Of a DNA stretch of 64,000 bases, positions 25,430 to 34,131 are shown in pieces. The notes below the pieces were generated by a model, which was not told where the DNA came from, did no database searches, and worked only from the letters and a program-made list of their open reading frames with translations. Position 1 is the stretch's first letter. The number at the start of each line of letters is the position of its first letter. The translations under genes were made by a program, and so were the position numbers. The stretch comes from Savitreella phatthalungensis (taxonomy: Eukaryota): positions 744,001 through 808,000 of the forward strand of contig AP039689.1 of the NCBI GenBank assembly GCA_051599415.1. Direction: 5' to 3'.

Positions 25430-26497
25430 TCAAACGCCAAGGCGAGCGAGCAGTGTCTCCTTCTCGGCAAGAGCGACACGGAGCTGGGCATTTTCAGCCT
25501 CTAGCTCAGCGATGCGGATCTCAGCGGCAGACATAGCTGCACGCTTGCGAGCACGCGAACGTGCGGCCGCCTCTGTGTTCTTGGCGCGGTTGACCGTCTT
25601 GATCTCGTCTTCCGTCATATTTGCCTTCGGAGTGGCAACACTGCCATCCTCGTTCAGCATCACGGCGGACTTTCGCTTGCGGCCACGCTGCTGCTTTGGG
25701 AATGCAGCATTGGCAGCCTCTGTAGGAGAGGCGACCGACGAGGTCGATGACGCTGTGAACTCGCGAGACAAGCATGGCACCATAGGGCTTGACAGCACAC
25801 TGTAGGGCTCGGCCTTGACCTTTGAGTCGCCCGAGATCGGGCTGACGAGCGCCGCAGGAGCGATGACCTGCTCTGATTGACCAGGAACGATGTCCTTAAA
25901 GGCCTGCTCGAAGAGCGGGTCACTCACGAGGTCAAACGCGGACTCCGTGCCGGCCTGAATTTCTTCAAACCCGCCGACAGAGTCGAACAGTGGCCGATCA
26001 GAGAAGAGACTTGCATCAGCGGTGTCGTGGTGAGACTGCTGTTTTTGTTGAGTCTTGTCGTCTGGGAGACCAGTCGAGAAGACAAAGGTGTTCAGGCTGT
26101 CAAAGACATCTGCGGCGGGCGAGTGGCCAAAGTCGTCGGAAACGAACGTGTCGGGTGTGTTGAAGAACCCAAGGTCTGGTGTCACCTGTACAGAGCTCTG
26201 AGCGAGCGAGAACGGGGAAGAGGCAAAGGCCTCCAGAGCGGCGGCAGAGACGCGCCTGCTGCTTGGGATCACTCCGAAGTCAGCGGGGGATTTGAAGCCG
26301 TCGTTGGTCTTGATTGAATTATCCTTGAAGGTTGTTGTTGAGTTTGTGTTGATTGTACTGTCGAGACTAGAAATGCTCGGTGTTGGAAATTGAGTGGTGG
26401 TAGATTGGCTGAAGGTCTCAAAGAGATCCTGGCCGAGCGACATCGCTTCGGCGATACGCTCGGCCTCATTCTGGGCTTGTGCTTGTACACTCATCAT
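25430..26497 (-). CDS. GCN4: Cross-pathway control bZIP transcription factor Gcn4/Cpc-1/CpcA
   Basis: C-terminal basic region RAKNTEAAARSRARK plus zipper, acidic/Phe-rich central region, and uORFs in the leader. Confidence 0.85.
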   Translation of the reverse strand: MMSVQAQAQNEAERIAEAMSLGQDLFETFSQSTTTQFPTPSISSLDSTINTNSTTTFKDNSIKTNDGFKSPADFGVIPSSRRVSAAALEAFASSPFSLAQSSVQVTPDLGFFNTPDTFVSDDFGHSPAADVFDSLNTFVFSTGLPDDKTQQKQQSHHDTADASLFSDRPLFDSVGGFEEIQAGTESAFDLVSDPLFEQAFKDIVPGQSEQVIAPAALVSPISGDSKVKAEPYSVLSSPMVPCLSREFTASSTSSVASPTEAANAAFPKQQRGRKRKSAVMLNEDGSVATPKANMTEDEIKTVNRAKNTEAAARSRARKRAAMSAAEIRIAELEAENAQLRVALAEKETLLARLGV

Positions 26498-26519
26498 AGT
26501 CGGATGTAAACGACTCCAT
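26466..26519 (-). promoter_or_regulatory. uORF2 of GCN4 (MESFTSDYDECTSTSPE*), out of frame and overlapping the main ATG
   Basis: ATG at 26519 in atcATGG context; TGA at 26468-26466. Confidence 0.7.
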
Positions 26520-26571
26520 GATGGGCGGGATTGTAGGTGTGTGTAGCGGACTCTGGGTGGTCGCTGGGTAT

Positions 26572-26580
26572 TTAGAACAT
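26572..26580 (-). promoter_or_regulatory. uORF1 of GCN4 (ATG TTC TAA)
   Basis: Minimal uORF in aacATG context, downstream of a TATAAG at about 26789-26784. Confidence 0.7.
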
Positions 26581-27568
26581 GTTGAGCGTTCTGATTATAA
26601 ACGTGAGTACTGCGATAGCTCAGCTTGACGGTTTGGAGAAGACCGTGCTGAGAATAATGAGACTCCTGAAGGTCTCTTCGAAGACGATAGCAGACTTTTC
26701 AGATGAAAGTCTTGACTACGTCCTTTTGTGGTCTTTGTTGGTTGTGTCGTGGATGAAGATGTAGGAATGTGCGACACTATGAACTTATACACTAAATTAT
26801 TCGGACCCTCCTGTGCTCGTGTATCAATTGAGCTTTCAGCTTTCGAGGACTGAATTTCCGAGGATGAAAAGCGTAGCCGGCATCTTTTCCCCCCTTTTCT
26901 TACCTTGAGTAGATTGGCACTCCATCCGATGCAGGCTTGCGGACTGATGATCTCCATCCTGCCCGCAGCTGCTCATAATTGCCCATGTTGAGACCTTTGA
27001 GTTTGACCGCATGGAATATCGACCGCAGCTGTGACTGACTTCAGCGTCTCATTCGGGTAGAATGTGATTTAGGTCTGGATTGGTCAAGTTGCCGATTGAG
27101 CCCAGATGAGATTTAAAGTGTGGATTCAATCTTTACCAATGATCATCACTTTCTCCCGCGTATTCATGCAGCTTGATTTCTCAGCTAGACCACTAAAGCT
27201 AGGGGGAGGAATGAATGCATTCAAGACACTTGCAGTCGGGTAAGGAAGAGGGACCGGCAGAATAGAGTTTAGGGTGCTTGCTGGCATAACTAGATCCAAT
27301 CGATTTTACAGCGTGAATTCAACAATATTGGAGAGAAACTTTGAATCAGCTCGATACAGATACGAATTGTGCTGATCTCGCTAAGGATCCTTCCTTTGCT
27401 CGATCAGATTTGGGTTCGGGTCAATCAGATCTGGGTTTGGATACATGTTTGTAGACGGAAGAGAATTTATCTTTTCCTCCCAGACTAGGTTCAAATCTTG
27501 ATCCAATCTAGTCAAGGTAGAAGATACATGTGCTTGATATTGAATCTGGCGATTGAGACGACGAGATT

Positions 27569-27577: not shown

Positions 27578-28676
27578 TTTCAAACACGCGATGGATTCTC
27601 TGGTTTACAATATCCATATGATACTATATGATACTCGAACAATGCATATGCAGACATGTGCGCGTGGGGAGATGATCAAGAGGAGATCACATATGGTATG
27701 TATGGCGTTGGATACGAGGAGGCAACAAGGAGAATCTAATGTATGAGATCGACTATTCCATTCATTCACTCCACATGACCCACGAGGATTTCACTTCCTG
27801 CACCCTCCACAGTTACAGCCGTCGGTTGCTCCTCAACATATTGGTTGCCTGATCAACCATTATGCTTACCTCCAAGCTCGCTGATCGTCTGTATCTCGTT
27901 TATAGGTTGCTGGAAATGGCTAGTGAAATTTGTAGATCTCCTCCTCTCCAGGCTGACAGACATGCATCCGGATATCTCTACATGTCCAAAAGGCCCTGTG
28001 CGACTGCCAAGAGCTCGAGACTCCTGACTTGTAATGGCGATAACTATACGTTTGAGATTTGACCAGATGAACTCTTGGCGAGTACTCGGTGCATCGAATG
28101 ATGACACTTGCTGATGAGCTTCATTGTTCACTTGAGTGGTCATCGAACCCGCAAGTTTAATTTCTGATCACCTGTCGAGTAATTTTGCCTTTTCTGCATT
28201 TTAGAATTCGCGTGGATTTGTGCATATGGCTTCGAGTTCAACCCCGCAGGTTGAGGATCCCGTGCCCGGTCCGCGGGAGATTGCAGACGCGTTTTCAAAT
28301 TTCTTCTCCAGAAACACTTCAATCCCAGTCCGCATGAATGCTGTGTTCACAATCTGCTGCCATTCGATTTCACCTGCATGCAGACTGCACTCACAACGGC
28401 CCAAATTCGATAGCACGACGATGGACCACCCGTACGCCACTAACATCTCAACCGAATTTGAGGTACGATATCTCACGACCTGCTTGTCCGATACTCTTGA
28501 ATCCTGACACTGGTGTAGACGTCTGTCTGAAATGCCATAGCTACCCAAGCAGATGACGTTTTCCTCGATAGAAGGAATACCATTATCACTGTCGGTCAAC
28601 GTAGTCACTCATCATTGAAAAATTTAGTCACACAGAAACATACATATACACATCATAATACATTGATATATGTGGT

Positions 28677-31600
28677 TTACGGCTCTGCATACGATTTCGG
28701 CACCTTTCGACGCCTGCTTGATCTATCCTCCAGGATCTCGGGCTCCTTTGAGGCTTGATCTGGTTCAACGAGGACGTACTCCCAGTAGTCTCTCCTCCGT
28801 CGCTTTCTCTCTGGGTTGGCGGAGGATGACGAGCTGGTGTGAGCGATCGAGTCGATCGGCATAGCTGTTGAGGACGACGAAGATACTTGGAAAGGTCGGT
28901 TTGCAGATCCACCTACACCTGTCTCCGCTGCATTTGTCGCAATGGATGGCAAGGCCGGGCCGGATCCCGGCCTCGGTGTCGATCCACGTGCAAGCGCGTC
29001 TCTCGACGATGGTGAGATCGTGATTGGACGTGGCGACCGGTGAGTCTGCTGGTGCGTCTGCTCTGCAGGCGGAGTCGACTTCCGCCCAATCGTGCGCGGC
29101 TCATAGTCATATTCGCCGGCTGCCTCAGACTCATCGTCCTCGTCGTCTTCGCCGTCAGCACGGTCATCCTCGATCTTGATCACCGTCGGAGACGAATCTC
29201 GGCGGTCTTGGGCACTGGACGCATTCCGACCTTCGTCAGACGAGGTCCGACCAACAGAGTGACGCAAGGTCGATTGGCGCCGCAAAGTCTTCGATCGACG
29301 GGGCTTGCGCAGTTCGGCCGGTGGAAGGCTAGAGCCTGTACTATGCCGCGTGCGCGAGGAAAGCACCTCTGGCTCGAAGTCCTTGAATGAGCGATCGGTG
29401 CTGACAGTCTCGAAATACCATGATCCGGCATTCTTACGACGCTGCTTCTGTTGTCCATCCAGGCTCTCGCCAGCCGATGTCGGTCTGTCACCGTCGGTCG
29501 GTTTCTTATCGTCCGCGGTGATGTTTGGCACGGGTAGCGCACCATTCGTCCCACTGCCCCGGACAACAGATGAAGACTTCCGGGGACGATGCGGCACGGA
29601 CGGCAAGGAGTGTCCGCGCCTCTTCCCTCGGCCTCGATGCGCTTCTTTATTCTTCCCGTGAAGAGTGCCGTTCGCGCTAGGCCGACCAGGTCCACGGCGA
29701 GCGGGTGGACTTCCTAGAACTGGTTCGTCATCCGGCCGATCGATGTAGGCAATGTACCTTCCGCCAACGCAAGGAAAGCCCTTCTTTTTGCATCGGCGAC
29801 AGCAATCGCCGCCCTTCACAGCTTTAGAGCAACGATGGCGCGCCTTGCGACATTCAAAACAGGCAGCATACATGCTAGCAGCCCAGGACCGAACGATGTA
29901 CTTGCGCCCATCTGCATAGGTGCCGCGGGGATGTAGCATGGCTGCATGCACCTTGCTCGGTAGTCCGGCCCAATCGATCTCGTCTGCAAATTCGGGTTCA
30001 CTCGATTCGTCTCGCAGGTATTGCGTTGTGCTATTTGTACCAGACTGGAACGTGTTGTGCCCTGAAGCTGAAGCACGCTCAGCCAATTGTGCGGCCGTCA
30101 ATTTTGGCACGCGACGCGGCCACCTGATGTCGTACAACTCCGCATGACGAATGCAGCGGTTGCACCGATCGTCTGCGTCACTGATGTCATCAAGATTCAG
30201 CAGCGTCCCACGTACACCAGCGAGGTCCGCGTTGCTCCTTGAAGGCTCGATTGCGCAGTCAGAGCACCACTGAATCGACGGATCGTCTGCTCGTCTTGGG
30301 TACTTCTCACGGCGGGTCATCTCGGCTGCCGCAGCACTGTTTAACTCAGCCTTCCGACGGCTGTGGAAATAATCTAGCCCAGCGCGAGGCCGTAGACCAC
30401 GGCGTGGCCGGTCCTGCGACTCTGTGTCGTTGTCGCCCGCATTCGTCGCCACTTCCGAAGATTCTTCTGCTTCCTCATCATGTGCGGAATCTCCGGCGAT
30501 CGAAGCTGAGTCCCGCTCGCTGCTTCGATTCGAGGCAGCATGATGAACATGCCCATTTGTTGGGGCTGCAGACCTGCTGGCACCATTCACCTGTGCAAAC
30601 GAGTCAGGCTTGTCAGCCACGCCACCTGCACCACTCAACCGCTTTTGACCCGACGGACCGGTGGCACCCATCGGTGCCGTACCCGCAGCCATAGATTCGC
30701 CCGAGGTAAGCATGTCCACGTCGACTGACTCGATATGCTTTTGTGGGTGCTGCTGTGATGATCCGTCTTGCTTTGACCTCTGGCGTTCTGCCGTACGGAT
30801 GTTGTTCGCTGGATCATATCCATTGGCACCACGACGCTCGCAGCAAGCGCACTTGCACTCGACGTTGTCCGGGCCGAAATAGTCGGGTGAGTAAAACACC
30901 GTGACTTCCTCGCCCTTTCGGATCGGCTTGATGACTGTGAGCGTGATGGTCACACCGGTCGTGACGAATGCAGCATTCGGCTCGCACTCGTGATTGACGA
31001 ACCGAGCTGGACCAAGAAACAAACACATAGCACCGAGTCTTGAGGAGTGCAGGATACTGAAATCCTGCTGATCGTTCTCGTAGTAGTCCTCTTCGTCCTG
31101 TGTCATTGCAACGAACGTGCCACACAGCTGGGAGAGAATCTCGCCCGGATTGAGATCGCGTACGGCGAGGATGCATGCTTCTGCTTTTGCCGTACCATAG
31201 CGTTCGGTCGCTGAAATTTCGAATGCTGCCTCAGGCCGATATATGTTGAGATACTTTCTCGCATGTCGCTCAAAATCGGTCTTCTGTGCTGCTGTGAGGT
31301 CGGAGCAGAAGCTGCGGACGTTATCTAATCGCATAAAGTCCACGAGCGCGTCCGCGAGTCGTGATTTCTGTGGGAAGACATGCCGCCGTAGCAAAGCATG
31401 AATTTCGCCGACCTGGGCGTCGGAATAGGTGAGTGCTGGCTCCTGTCTAGGGTTAGTCACTGACAGGGACGACCTTCCTGATCTCTCAGGTCAAGAACTC
31501 ACTCGACAAGCCTTGTGAGTTGTTATCCAGAAGTAAAGCTCATCAATTAAGTGCTTTGTCAGAACTGTCCGGTGAGAGGTGTGTCAGTTTTACGTCACTG

Positions 31601-31781
31601 GAATTTTTGTGAGAATGTAGACGATCGCGTCCGGAACCTGGTGCCTCGCTGCGTTGCCGACGATCGACTTCGAGCATTCGGAGCGAGAGGAATACCAGGC
31701 TCGATCAGACGCCATTGGCAGCTGTCACTTACAGTCATCGTACTCGCACAGTGCCGCGAGTGTGAGACTCTTGCTTGACAT
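28677..31781 (-). CDS. SET9: Histone H4K20 methyltransferase Set9 (exons 31781-31733, 31564-31503, 31442-28677) with an internal Zn2Cys6 motif
   Basis: The spliced N-terminus reads MSSKSLTLAALCEYDDFLTKHLIDELYFWITTHK. SET motifs: DFSILHSSR..LFLGPARFVNHEC, EVTVFY..DYFG, CKCACCE. Introns: GTAAGT..CTGAC..CAG and GTGAGT..CTAAC..CAG. Confidence 0.9.
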
Positions 31782-31990
31782 TCATGCAGAAGCCGTTCAA
31801 CAGCAGCACACTTTGATAAAGCAAGATGAAATAGAATTTCGCGCAGGCCTTGAGTCCTTGTCTCGGGCTTCGAACGACCTTCTAGGCTACTGTCGTAACA
31901 GGTGTGGGTATGTGCTTGAAGATTAAGTAGGTGAGTGACGCGCTTGTTGTGCGCATATAACGTTCTGTGAGTATATTGTTCACCTTACTT

Positions 31991-32036
31991 GTGTGTGTAT
32001 TGCATCCAAATAAGTGTGTGTATTGCATCCAAATAA
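31991..32036. repeat. 23-bp direct repeat GTGTGTGTATTGCATCCAAATAA, 2 copies
   Basis: Read directly in the divergent SET9/MDR promoter. Confidence 0.9.
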
Positions 32037-32307
32037 TTAAGTATGCATGCAATGTAGCTCTGCAAATTTCCGTATCCCACAAGCCATGAACCACAAGACA
32101 CGTGATCTACGCCAATGATTGCACATATCACGACGTCAAGCCTTCAGGTCAAAGACCTCCAAGCACTATAGAAACGACATTGACGCCGCGCTAGAGGGCG
32201 GTCCCAAGGTCCCTGCTGTTCGCAGTGCGATGCATCGCATTTATCAGCAATCAAGTAGACGCTGAGTTCTGGAATCGACCTGTTAATACTGAAGAACCTT
32301 TCAAACA

Positions 32308-34131
32308 ATGAGCTCAAGAGAGGTGCGCGACGCACTTCCGAAATCTATACCGTACTACGCATTCAGTGGAGGTCCCCGAGGGAAGGTACAATATGCCTCC
32401 GGGAGACCGTGTCCGGGCAAAGTGTTCCTCGACAGAGAGGATCTCCTGGTGCGTGTGACGAACGCCAACGTCTCCCGCAACACAGGATTTACCGGTCAGG
32501 TGATCTCTCTTGGTGATGACATTGACTCGATGCGTGTGAGCGACGTCGTTATCGGCGGTAAGACAGACTGTCTACAGCAATTTATTGTTGTAAAACGGAC
32601 CGACGTCATTCATCGTCCTGACCACGTGCGCATGGCCGATGGGTCGCTTGCATACTGGGGCGCCACCCTGATCCAGGCGACCCACACCCTCCAGCCGGAC
32701 ATGCTCGTTCTCGTTCTCGGAGACCCCTCTGGGATCGCCGTGCAGCTTGCAAAAGCTATGGACTGCAAGGTGCATTCCGATGATACGCGCGATACCTTAT
32801 GCGAGTTCCACCTGGACAGTGAAAACCCACTCGGGTGGTTAAACGAACACCAATTCGTTTACGACTGTATCATCGATGCCAGGGAGGCGACAGAGGTTTA
32901 CGATGCTTGCGCTCATTTTACTTCGGAGAATGCGGAGTACTTCAGCATAGAGCCGTCGTCTTCGATGTCTTCTGTCCGGCGGAAATTTCTGCCAGCTGCG
33001 TTTGGAGGTGGCGCACGAAAGATCGTCGTCGTCAGACATCCTAGCGGCAAGACGCGTGGTCAGCAGCTACACAACTTCCTCAAATTTGCTGAAGAGAAGA
33101 GCATCAAGTTACGCAGGCTCGAAGTTGTCCGGTTCGAGCGTGTACCAGATGTATACTATGTCGATCGCGTCGCCACAGTCATTCAGGTGGCGAAACCTGT
33201 GGCGATAGATGATGTGGTACCGGACGAGCCGGTGGCCGAGACGGACTTGGCTGAGGAACCAGAAACGCCAAAGCGCGATCGATCAGGAGTATCTGTCGCC
33301 ACGACCTCTGGGCCGTCCCCGAACCTCTTGCAGTTCACGCCCAAGTCAGAAACACTCAGGACGCAATCGCCGGCGAATCGAGGTATGTATTCGCCAGCAC
33401 GGCCTTCCACTCTAGCCCACAGCATCAGCGCTTCCAACCTGCACGATGGCGAACCCGAAGAGGCGCAATCTAGAGAAGACAACCGACGTGCGTCTCTACG
33501 CGGAGGCGGTATAAACTCGTCTCCACGCCTATCGCGGTCTTATTCTGCAGCGTCGCTGCAGCAGCTGACGTCTGCGGCTGGCGCGATCGAGGCTTCACCT
33601 CGGGTGCTCGCGTACCAGCCTGGTGATCGCCCTCTGCTGGGTTCCTCTCGCCGATCGTCTCGCTCGTTCACGGACGATCCGTTCCTCGTTGCCGCACAGG
33701 ACGACCACCTCTCCCGCCACCACACCAGGCGACGCACGTCCAGCGTCACCAGCCCCACCACGCGACCTTCCTCCCCATCCCCGTCCTCGTCTACCTTCCC
33801 ACACCACTCCCACGACGTCGACCCGATGACGAACCCGCTAGGAATTGTGGTGCCGCATGACGACACAGGTGAGACCGAGGAGCGTGGGCTGTTGGAGGAT
33901 GGTGGGTCTGATTCTGATGGTGAATTGGAGACTGGTGATGGCGGTCGACGGATGAGTGCTCGATTTGACCGCGCTTCGCAAATGGTTCCTCGCCATCCGC
34001 CGAAAGTGATCGACCCGCCGGAAGCTCCCAGTGCAACCACTACGACAATCACCACACCGCAGGACCTCGATCAGGCAAAGGCACAGATCGCAGAGCTCCA
34101 AGCACAACTAGCCGCTCTACAAAAGCCTTGA
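32308..34131 (+). CDS. Degenerate MDR/quinone-oxidoreductase-like (Yim1/RTN4IP1-like) domain with a disordered Ser/Arg-rich tail and terminal coiled coil
   Basis: GFTGQVISLG, VLVLGDPSGIAVQLAKAMDC, YDCIIDA, FLPAAFGGGARK. Confidence 0.65.
   Translation: MSSREVRDALPKSIPYYAFSGGPRGKVQYASGRPCPGKVFLDREDLLVRVTNANVSRNTGFTGQVISLGDDIDSMRVSDVVIGGKTDCLQQFIVVKRTDVIHRPDHVRMADGSLAYWGATLIQATHTLQPDMLVLVLGDPSGIAVQLAKAMDCKVHSDDTRDTLCEFHLDSENPLGWLNEHQFVYDCIIDAREATEVYDACAHFTSENAEYFSIEPSSSMSSVRRKFLPAAFGGGARKIVVVRHPSGKTRGQQLHNFLKFAEEKSIKLRRLEVVRFERVPDVYYVDRVATVIQVAKPVAIDDVVPDEPVAETDLAEEPETPKRDRSGVSVATTSGPSPNLLQFTPKSETLRTQSPANRGMYSPARPSTLAHSISASNLHDGEPEEAQSREDNRRASLRGGGINSSPRLSRSYSAASLQQLTSAAGAIEASPRVLAYQPGDRPLLGSSRRSSRSFTDDPFLVAAQDDHLSRHHTRRRTSSVTSPTTRPSSPSPSSSTFPHHSHDVDPMTNPLGIVVPHDDTGETEERGLLEDGGSDSDGELETGDGGRRMSARFDRASQMVPRHPPKVIDPPEAPSATTTTITTPQDLDQAKAQIAELQAQLAALQKP

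What the first reader, a model, noticed from the sequence alone, without database searches (positions are those of the whole stretch)
29769..29861. Set9 H4K20 methyltransferase carries an internal Zn(II)2Cys6 cluster and an AT-hook-like motif
Seen: CFECRKARHRCSKAVKGGDCCRRCKKKGFPC fits C-X2-C-X6-C-X9-C-X2-C-X6-C, the Gal4-type binuclear cluster. It is in the same uninterrupted exon as the SET domain and is followed by RRGPGRP. Known: S. pombe Set9 is recruited through the PWWP protein Pdp1, and I know of no zinc cluster in it. Inference: this enzyme may be targeted to DNA in a sequence-specific way, as a writer-TF fusion.
Basis: partly seen in the sequence, partly recalled or inferred. Interest (0 to 1): 0.7.

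Follow-up and report, generated by a model that had tools for sequence, protein, structure and literature searches.

The report
Histone methyltransferase with zinc-cluster DNA grip
In a small group of plant-dwelling yeasts, the enzyme that methylates histone H4 lysine 20 has picked up a worn copy of the zinc-cluster domain that fungal transcription factors use to hold DNA, probably as a built-in grip on chromatin rather than a precise address label.

Summary
The motif is real. CFECRKARHRCSKAVKGGDCCRRCKKKGFPC (29861-29769, minus strand) lies at residues 565-595 of a 958-aa Set9/Kmt5, in the same exon as the SET domain. It is a divergent Zn2Cys6 cluster: under Pfam's cut-off (18.8 vs 21 bits), but a profile of orthologous clusters retrieves Leu3, Gal4, Put3, Pho7 and Rsc3.

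It is not unique to this species. It is intact in 7 of 10 Taphrinales-type orthologue clusters, damaged in 1, eroded in 2, and absent from 153 other Set9-like proteins sampled. The cysteines and three DNA-facing positions keep their chemistry (7 of 8 each), while other residues drift as fast as disordered linker or faster. No dimerisation coil or transcription-factor middle region follows. The AT-hook claim fails: PGRP, not RGRP, and unconserved.

Best reading (0.5): a monomeric, low-information DNA tether, perhaps favouring CGG/GC, doing the job that Pdp1's DNA-binding surface does in fission yeast. Other lineages' Set9 tails carry AT-hooks, PWWP/chromo or PHD/C2H2 modules instead. True sequence-specific targeting stays possible (0.2). 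I found no description in ten literature searches. Zinc binding, DNA binding and the transcript are untested.

The parts
31733..31781 (-). set9 exon 1 (starts MSSKSLTL)
   Evidence: Exon search reproducing P0002 exactly; GTAAGT donor
31503..31564 (-). set9 exon 2
   Evidence: GTGAGT donor, next intron has CTAAC branch and CAG acceptor
28677..31442 (-). set9 exon 3: SET domain, all zinc modules and the disordered tail in one stop-free frame
   Evidence: the other two minus frames hold 14 and 37 stops
30891..31175 (-). SET domain, Suv4-20/Set9 type (aa 127-221 of P0002)
   Evidence: Pfam SET E 8.5e-11; best PDB hits SUV420H1/H2, E 2e-29 to 4e-28; Foldseek top rows SUV420H1/H2
30840..30857 (-). 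post-SET cysteines CKCACC (aa 233-238)
   Evidence: C233, C235, C238 invariant in alignment A1; aligned to the SUV420H2 cysteines
30117..30266 (-). widespread fungal Set9 four-cysteine module CxxC..CxxCxRHxxLYxxxWP (aa 430-479), no Pfam family
   Evidence: Second half matches in 138 of 152 other Set9-like proteins and 14 of 14 Taphrinales-type sequences
29769..29861 (-). divergent Zn2Cys6 binuclear cluster (aa 565-595), the finding
   Evidence: confident island with two short helices in an otherwise low-confidence tail
29679..29699 (-). RRGPGRP, start of a basic patch; not a canonical or conserved AT-hook
29346..29426 (-). first copy of a Taphrinales-conserved W-x-[YF]-x-x-V...E-P-x-[IV]-L-x-x-R motif (aa 710-736)
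   Evidence: W712, V717, R734, R736 invariant in A1; pattern in 8 of 10 Taphrinales-type and 0 of 153 other proteins
28722..28784 (-). second copy of the same motif (WEYVLV...EPEILEDR, aa 924-944), just before a C-terminal R..SYAE motif

Best explanation
The gene is the genome's single Set9/Kmt5 H4K20 methyltransferase. An ancestor of the Taphrinales gained a Zn2Cys6 cluster, taken from the fungal zinc-cluster family, in the disordered tail behind the family's own four-cysteine module. The cluster most likely still folds around two zinc ions and, as a monomer on a flexible linker, docks its first helix on nucleosomal or linker DNA. It would grip phosphates and read at most a CGG-like triplet. 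That gives the enzyme a second, low-information hold on chromatin (longer dwell time, perhaps a GC bias), the job that Pdp1's DNA-binding PWWP surface does for fission-yeast Set9. It is accessory and has been lost more than once. Shown: sequence, gene model, homology, distribution, conservation pattern. Inferred: zinc binding, DNA binding, monomeric state, effect on methylation.
For: Homology: profile-profile with 40 canonical clusters of this genome, prob. 95.9, E 6e-9. 18 of 22 PDB sequences retrieved by the orthologue profile at E<=10 are Zn2Cys6 proteins, best Leu3 E 1.4e-6. Distribution: intact in 7 of 10 Taphrinales-type clusters at the same place, 0 of 153 others; the carriers form one clade, local support 0.963. 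DNA face kept: PMC6265462 (passages) places phosphate contacts at C2+1 and C2+6 in Pho7, and the guanine-reading residue at C2+4 (Lys, His or Asn in solved complexes). Here C2+1 is K/R in 7 of 8, C2+4 K/R/H/N in 7 of 8, C2+6 K/R in 7 of 8, against 26-32% background; the second half-repeat scores 2 of 8. Low information: non-Cys identity among 8 orthologues 0.164, below 40 paralogous TFs 0.233; at most 4 of 6 heptad positions hydrophobic in the next 70 residues, 2 of 6 here. Precedent: Pdp1's DNA surface is needed for H4K20me2/3 (PMC6222470 passages). Only one PWWP protein was found here, a PWWP + TFIIS-N type closer to 1h3z than to Pdp1 2l89. Other Set9 tails carry RGRP cores (36 of 153 vs about 3 expected) or PWWP/chromo domains (8 of 143 scanned).
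Against: No binding data of any kind. The cluster misses Pfam's cut-off, and a profile of this genome's canonical clusters did not detect it in the full-length P0002. The proline before Cys4 is kept in 37 of 40 canonical clusters but 3 of 8 Set9 clusters, not this one. C2+4 is K/R in only 3 of 8 versus 34 of 40 canonical (p=0.01), and Asn or Gly there never occurs in this genome's 40 TFs. The set K/R/H/N was chosen after reading the Pho7 paper, and the binomial tests treat related sequences as independent. In the two closest pairs the cluster diverges faster than the linkers (8 of 45 vs 296 of 667), which suits diversifying specificity at least as well. Damaged or eroded in 3 of 10. Pezizomycotina Kmt5 works without a Pdp1 orthologue (PMC10553808 passages) and without this cluster, so a tether is not always needed. 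The PWWP search is a lower bound.
Confidence: 0.5

Rival explanations
1. Sequence-specific writer-TF fusion: the cluster and its flanking peptides read a defined site, as monomeric Pho7 does, and place H4K20me at particular loci. The fast turnover of non-Cys residues reflects lineage-specific retargeting, as in PRDM9's zinc fingers (PRDM9 analogy recalled, no call).
For: Guanine-compatible residue at C2+4 in 7 of 8 and a basic residue at C2+5 in 4 of 8, the position of Pho7 Lys300, versus 10% in canonical clusters. Monomeric sequence-specific clusters exist (Pho7, AlcR). The pair P0006/P0022 is 97% identical in SET but 2 of 20 at aligned non-Cys cluster positions; P0004/P0009 is 85% vs 6 of 25, with 43-62% flanks. 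This species has a basic patch downstream (12 K/R vs 5 D/E in 60 aa). Rsc3/Rsc30 clusters of the RSC remodeller bind CGCG (PMC6959994 passage).
Against: No conserved flanking peptide such as Pho7 needs for its 14-bp footprint; the basic patch is not shared. Only two close pairs, gapped alignments inflate linker identity, and no DNA was available for dN/dS. Repeated loss is odd for a primary targeting domain.
Confidence: 0.2
2. Decaying relic: a zinc cluster captured once and now being lost, with little or no present function; the cysteines persist by inertia.
For: Third cysteine is Gly in T. deformans (P0003); P0008 lacks Cys1/Cys2 and P0005 keeps 2 scattered Cys. Non-Cys identity 13% in A1, no higher than linkers at 17-21%. 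Sub-threshold Pfam scores.
Against: All six Cys and an 8-9-residue loop persist in 7 lineages whose neighbouring residues have turned over almost fully, in tails with 0-6 Cys per 390-680 linker residues. Three DNA-facing positions stay non-random.
Confidence: 0.13
3. Folded zinc cluster repurposed for protein or RNA binding (partner or histone docking) rather than DNA.
For: The Cys skeleton is conserved while TF hallmarks have changed: Asp at C3+1 in 28 of 40 canonical vs 0 of 8; proline before C4 37 of 40 vs 3 of 8.
Against: A fixed protein partner should conserve surface residues, and these are the least conserved. What is kept maps to DNA contacts.
Confidence: 0.12
4. Artefact: a chance cysteine pattern, or a segment removed by splicing.
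For: A donor-like GTATGC at 29871 and a branch-plus-acceptor at 29215 could define an in-frame 657-nt intron over the cluster.
Against: That intron would also delete the invariant W712/V717/R734/R736 motif; the gene's two introns are 168 and 60 nt. The motif recurs in frame in orthologues from several sources. Shuffle tests.
Confidence: 0.03

Closest known systems
Set9/Kmt5 (fungal Suv4-20 family H4K20 methyltransferase)
   Same: N-terminal Suv4-20-type SET with post-SET cysteines, single copy, the four-cysteine tail module. The source names it Set9.
   Different: Carries a Zn2Cys6 cluster. PMC2474616 (passage) says family members carry only a SET domain; S. octosporus, S. cryophilus, S. japonicus, Neolecta and Saitoella proteins lack the cluster.
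S. pombe Set9-Pdp1 complex
   Same: A methyltransferase given a second, DNA-binding grip; Pdp1's DNA surface is needed for H4K20me2/3 (PMC6222470 passages).
   Different: Here the putative grip is in cis and is a zinc cluster, which cannot read H4K20me as a PWWP does. No clear Pdp1 orthologue was found (lower bound).
Gal4/Leu3/Put3-type Zn2Cys6 transcription factors
   Same: Six-Cys spacing, with the 9-residue loop of Leu3; basic recognition helix.
   Different: Internal at aa 565; no coiled coil; no Fungal_trans or other TF domain; lacks the Pro before Cys4; fast-evolving.
Pho7 and AlcR (monomeric Zn2Cys6 proteins)
   Same: No dimerisation coil; Asn at the Gal4 Lys18 position occurs in Pho7 and in 2 of 8 Set9 clusters.
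   Different: Pho7's specificity needs flanking peptides in the minor groove; nothing comparable is conserved here.
Rsc3/Rsc30 of the RSC remodeller
   Same: A zinc cluster serving a chromatin-modifying machine and binding a short GC motif, CGCG (PMC6959994 passage); weakly retrieved by the Set9-cluster profile (E 2.5 and 9.1).
   Different: Separate subunits with N-terminal clusters that dimerise; not fused to the catalytic chain.
PRDM9 (recalled, no call)
   Same: A SET-type methyltransferase with an attached fast-evolving zinc-based DNA-binding module.
   Different: PRDM9 has a long C2H2 array of proven specificity and methylates H3K4/K36; here one Zn2Cys6 unit on an H4K20 enzyme, specificity and selection untested.

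Membership tests
Set9/Kmt5/Suv4-20 | N-terminal SET domain closest to SUV420H1/H2, with post-SET cysteines | tested here: met
   Top 10 PDB sequence hits are SUV420H1/H2, E<=4e-28; next family 1.5e-6; Foldseek agrees
Set9/Kmt5/Suv4-20 | Single fungal orthologue, similar to named Set9 proteins | tested here: met
   One strong match in the own genome, two weak other SETs; named Set9 relatives
Set9/Kmt5/Suv4-20 | Methylates H4K20 | not testable with these tools
   Inferred from family; the Protomyces orthologue is listed as H4K20 in a supplement of PMC12581908
Zn2Cys6 domain | Six cysteines spaced C-x2-C-x6-C-x5-12-C-x2-C-x6-8-C | tested here: met
   intact in 7 of 10 orthologue clusters
Zn2Cys6 domain | Profile-level homology to solved Zn2Cys6 domains | tested here: met
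   18 of 22 PDB sequences at E<=10 are Zn2Cys6, best E 1.4e-6; hhalign 95.9; Zn_clus matches 7 of 8 fragments at E<=1, best 2.7e-5
Zn2Cys6 domain (formal Pfam PF00172) | Score at or above the 21-bit gathering cut-off | tested here: not met
   18.8 bits, 16.8; not among the 46 genome matches. Filed as a divergent homologue, not a formal member
Zn2Cys6 domain | Two short helices folded round a binuclear zinc site | tested here: inconclusive
   Full-length model: pLDDT 63-73 over aa 561-600, helices 566-570 and 586-591. Fragment model pLDDT 71 gave no informative fold match
Zn2Cys6 domain | Binds two Zn(II) ions | not testable with these tools
   Needs metal analysis
Gal4-type transcription factor | Guanine-reading residue at the Gal4 Lys18 position | tested here: inconclusive
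   Arg here (13 of 40 canonical clusters of this genome have Arg); K/R/H/N in 7 of 8 orthologues but K/R in only 3 of 8
Gal4-type transcription factor | Coiled-coil dimerisation helix after the cluster | tested here: not met
   Crude heptad count 2 of 6 here, 0-4 of 6 in orthologues; region low-confidence coil in the model
Gal4-type transcription factor | Cluster near the N terminus with a Fungal_trans middle region (recalled definition) | tested here: not met
   Cluster at aa 565 of 958; Pfam finds only SET
Gal4-type transcription factor | Sequence-specific DNA binding | not testable with these tools
   Needs SELEX, PBM or ChIP
AT-hook | R-G-R-P core (recalled definition), conserved in orthologues | tested here: not met
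   PGRP here; RGRP in 0 of 14 Taphrinales-type sequences, GRP only in this one; no Pfam AT_hook at E<=10

The most novel reading that the evidence does not exclude
Taphrinales Set9 is a fungal PRDM9-like enzyme: an H4K20 methyltransferase that finds its own DNA sites through a captured Zn2Cys6 cluster, whose specificity residues are under diversifying selection, so that each lineage marks different sequences (repeats, centromeres or promoters).
Probability: 0.12. Interest if true: 0.85.

Novelty: new variant of a known kind. Interest (0 to 1): 0.55.

Why it matters
How fungal Kmt5 is brought to chromatin is open: PMC10553808 (passage) says little is known about its partners beyond S. pombe Pdp1, and found no true Pdp1 orthologue in Zymoseptoria. 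This survey suggests one answer: Set9 tails repeatedly acquire their own chromatin grips (Zn2Cys6 in Taphrinales, AT-hooks, PWWP/chromo, PHD/C2H2 elsewhere). The Taphrinales cluster is a compact, mutable test case, and a chimera in S. pombe pdp1-delta asks directly whether any DNA tether suffices for H4K20me2/3. It also shows a TF domain fused to a histone writer that standard annotation misses because it scores below cut-off. If specificity and positive selection were shown, it would be a self-targeting histone writer in fungi.

Tried and rejected
RNA evidence: no RNA holder was listed for 28400-32000, so no reads were laid; this says nothing about expression.

Fold searches with the 49-residue single-sequence model: Foldseek returned nothing and VIA-align only generic helical hairpins, Z<=3.2; uninformative. 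The full-length search was filled by SET domains.

Homologue search with residues 395-625 alone found only the protein itself; orthologues came through the SET region. A third search with alignment A1 added no further Taphrinales-type protein. The metagenome scan gave 5 loci of 41-52% identity, which I did not analyse further, so no orthologue DNA for dN/dS.

ESM Atlas: the cluster gave only low-score unnamed hits; the four-cysteine module gave no named family.

Donor TF: none identified. L038 and L041 score best against the Set9-cluster profile, the peptide finds only itself in the genome, and leave-one-out profiles rank the held-out Set9 cluster first in only 4 of 8 cases, so single origin rests on position, loop length and the SET tree.

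My first reading, that the base-reading residue is lost, was revised after PMC6265462 showed Asn and His work there.

Crb2/Rad9 family search rang nowhere, controls included: uninformative. The first tree run returned nothing; the smaller tree omitted Neolecta and has weak deep nodes. Earlier scan findings: none. No complex prediction was run.

Full report
OBSERVATION. The minus strand holds a 937-codon open frame at 31490-28677. CFECRKARHRCSKAVKGGDCCRRCKKKGFPC maps to 29861-29769 and is the only Zn2Cys6 pattern in the six frames of the window; 0 of 100,000 protein shuffles give it, and 13 of 100,000 shuffles of the local Cys-rich 60 residues. A public protein identical over the searched region, P0002 (958 aa), is named histone lysine methyltransferase Set9 of Savitreella phatthalungensis by its source, a Taphrinales genus described from pineapple leaves (PMC8877625, abstract). 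Three exons (31781-31733, 31564-31503, 31442-28677) reproduce P0002 exactly; SET domain and cluster share exon 3. One in-frame 657-nt intron over the cluster is formally possible, but it would also remove an invariant downstream motif. The transcript itself is untested.

THE ENZYME. Its SET region matches SUV420H1/H2 best by sequence (E 2e-29 to 4e-28; next family 1.5e-6) and by fold, and has one strong match in the genome. It is Set9/Kmt5. H4K20 activity is inferred from family.

IS THE MOTIF A Zn2Cys6 CLUSTER? By homology, yes, but a divergent one. Pfam Zn_clus gives 18.8 bits on the excised piece (cut-off 21) and nothing on the whole protein. The genome has 46 Zn_clus matches, 45 over the cut-off, and this is not among them. 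The peptide alone retrieves Leu3 and Lac9. A profile of eight orthologous clusters retrieves 22 PDB sequences at E<=10, 18 of them Zn2Cys6 proteins: Leu3 (1.4e-6), Lac9, Put3, Gal4, Pho7, Hap1, Ppr1, AlcR, Rsc3, Rsc30. Profile-profile comparison with 40 of the genome's canonical clusters (the 40 best of 46) gives probability 95.9. In the full-length model residues 561-600 form an island at pLDDT 63-73 with two short helices, inside a tail mostly under 50. Fold searches of the fragment were uninformative.

DISTRIBUTION. Ten Taphrinales-type clusters at 90% identity were found: three named (Savitreella, Taphrina deformans, Protomyces lactucae-debilis) and seven unnamed, placed by a SET-only tree in one clade with local support 0.963. 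Seven of 10 have all six cysteines, 100-180 residues behind the four-cysteine module, with a loop of 9 (one of 8). T. deformans has Gly at Cys3; P0008 keeps only the later cysteines and P0005 two scattered ones. Carriers sit on the basal branches and the eroded forms are nested, which points to one gain and repeated loss (moderate support). The strict pattern occurs in 0 of 153 other Set9-like proteins, including Neolecta, three Schizosaccharomyces species, Saitoella, Tortispora, Orbilia and Gigaspora (names). Limits: these come mostly from the best 150 of 790 representatives with E<=1e-30; S. pombe itself and Pneumocystis were not identified among them; and the canonical-cluster profile is insensitive, listing only 4 of the 8 Set9 clusters and missing this one in full-length context.

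WHAT IS CONSERVED. Anchored non-Cys identity among the eight orthologous clusters is 0.164, lower than among 40 paralogous TFs of this genome (0.233; 0.24% of random sets of eight are as low). In the two closest pairs the cluster is less identical than the linkers (8 of 45 vs 296 of 667, p=0.0005; two pairs, gapped alignments). Yet the DNA-facing positions are non-random. PMC6265462 (passages) reports that the Gal4 Lys18 position (C2+4) reads guanine through Lys, His or Asn, and that C2+1 and C2+6 touch phosphates in Pho7. In the Set9 clusters C2+1 is K/R in 7 of 8, C2+4 K/R/H/N in 7 of 8 and C2+6 K/R in 7 of 8, against 26-32% background, while the second half-repeat scores 2 of 8 (residue set chosen after reading, sequences related). 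Against this, C2+4 is K/R in 3 of 8 versus 34 of 40 canonical, the proline before Cys4 is in 3 of 8 versus 37 of 40, and Asp at C3+1 in 0 of 8 versus 28 of 40. No coiled coil follows by a crude heptad count.

THE AT-HOOK. RRGPGRP lacks the RGRP core (definition recalled), has no Pfam hit, is absent from all 13 other Taphrinales-type sequences and arises in 7.7% of local shuffles. True RGRP cores are enriched in other fungal Set9 tails: 36 of 153 versus a mean of 3 and a maximum of 11 in 200 local shuffles.

CONTEXT. Of 143 non-Taphrinales proteins scanned with Pfam (10 of 153 not scanned), 8 carry PWWP or chromo-like domains at E<=0.001, several below cut-off, and Saitoella carries a PHD and weak C2H2 fingers. 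In S. pombe, Pdp1 binds DNA and H4K20me3, and its DNA surface is needed for H4K20me2/3 (PMC6222470 passages). This genome yielded one PWWP protein, PWWP plus TFIIS-N, closer to 1h3z (E 2e-14) than to Pdp1 2l89 (5e-10); that count is a lower bound. Zymoseptoria has no functional Pdp1 orthologue either (PMC10553808 passages), and Pezizomycotina Set9 proteins lack the cluster, so Kmt5 can manage without both.

MECHANISM. Most likely (0.5) the cluster folds on two zinc ions and acts as a monomeric, low-information DNA grip on a long flexible linker, holding the enzyme on nucleosomes and perhaps biasing it to CGG/GC-rich DNA. Rivals: sequence-specific, possibly fast-retargeting recruitment (0.2); decaying relic (0.13); protein or RNA binding (0.12); artefact (0.03). 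Sequence, gene model, homology, distribution and conservation are shown; zinc binding, DNA binding and any effect on methylation are inferred.

NOVELTY. Ten paper searches were answered. Five aimed at this fusion (19, 55, 58, 77, 93), and none of their listings describes a zinc cluster in Set9/Kmt5; I saw listings and abstract starts, at most 20 rows each. PMC2474616 (passages) says the family carries only a SET domain. PMC12581908 (passages; supplements searched) lists the Protomyces orthologue as plain Set9, with no Zn_clus or PF00172 in ten held files. PMC9973273 (passages) does not mention Set9. Subscription journals are mostly outside the library, and other papers' supplements were not read. 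Verdict: a new domain architecture of a known enzyme family, real and lineage-wide, function untested. Interest 0.55.

Noticed in passing
window 30266-30117 (-), aa 430-479 of P0002: A CxxC..CxxCxRHxxLYxxxWP module whose second half is in 138 of 152 other Set9-like proteins and all 14 Taphrinales-type sequences. No Pfam family or named Atlas match: an unnamed, widespread probable zinc module of fungal Set9.
   Followed up: partly
window 29426-29346 and 28784-28722 (-): A twice-repeated W-x-[YF]-x-x-V...E-P-x-[IV]-L-x-x-R motif in Taphrinales-type Set9 tails (8 of 10; 0 of 153 others), plus a C-terminal R...Y[KA]E-type ending shared with two Schizosaccharomyces proteins. Probably short docking motifs; partner unknown.
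   Followed up: partly
P0020, P0052, P0064, P0082, P0092, P0093, P0111, P0160: Set9 proteins with fused PWWP and/or chromo/Tudor-knot domains, a cis version of the Set9-Pdp1 pair; only P0020 is named (Blyttiomyces).
   Followed up: partly
P0012 (Saitoella coloradoensis Set9): Tail holds a PHD finger and several weak C2H2 fingers instead of a zinc cluster.
   Followed up: no
other fungal Set9 tails: RGRP AT-hook cores in 36 of 153 proteins versus about 3 expected.
   Followed up: partly
window 31991-32036: Exact 23-nt tandem duplication in the roughly 530-bp region between set9 and the divergent neighbour.
   Followed up: no
window 32293-34131 (+): 612-codon frame with no Pfam hit; weak likeness to quinone oxidoreductase (E 0.024), possibly a degenerate MDR-fold protein with a low-complexity tail.
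   Followed up: partly
window 25430-26698 (-): bZIP transcription factor frame; Gcn4/CpcA-like by recalled resemblance only.
   Followed up: no
L001:1399-2688 (+): The only PWWP protein found in the genome, PWWP plus TFIIS-N/Med26 domain.
   Followed up: partly
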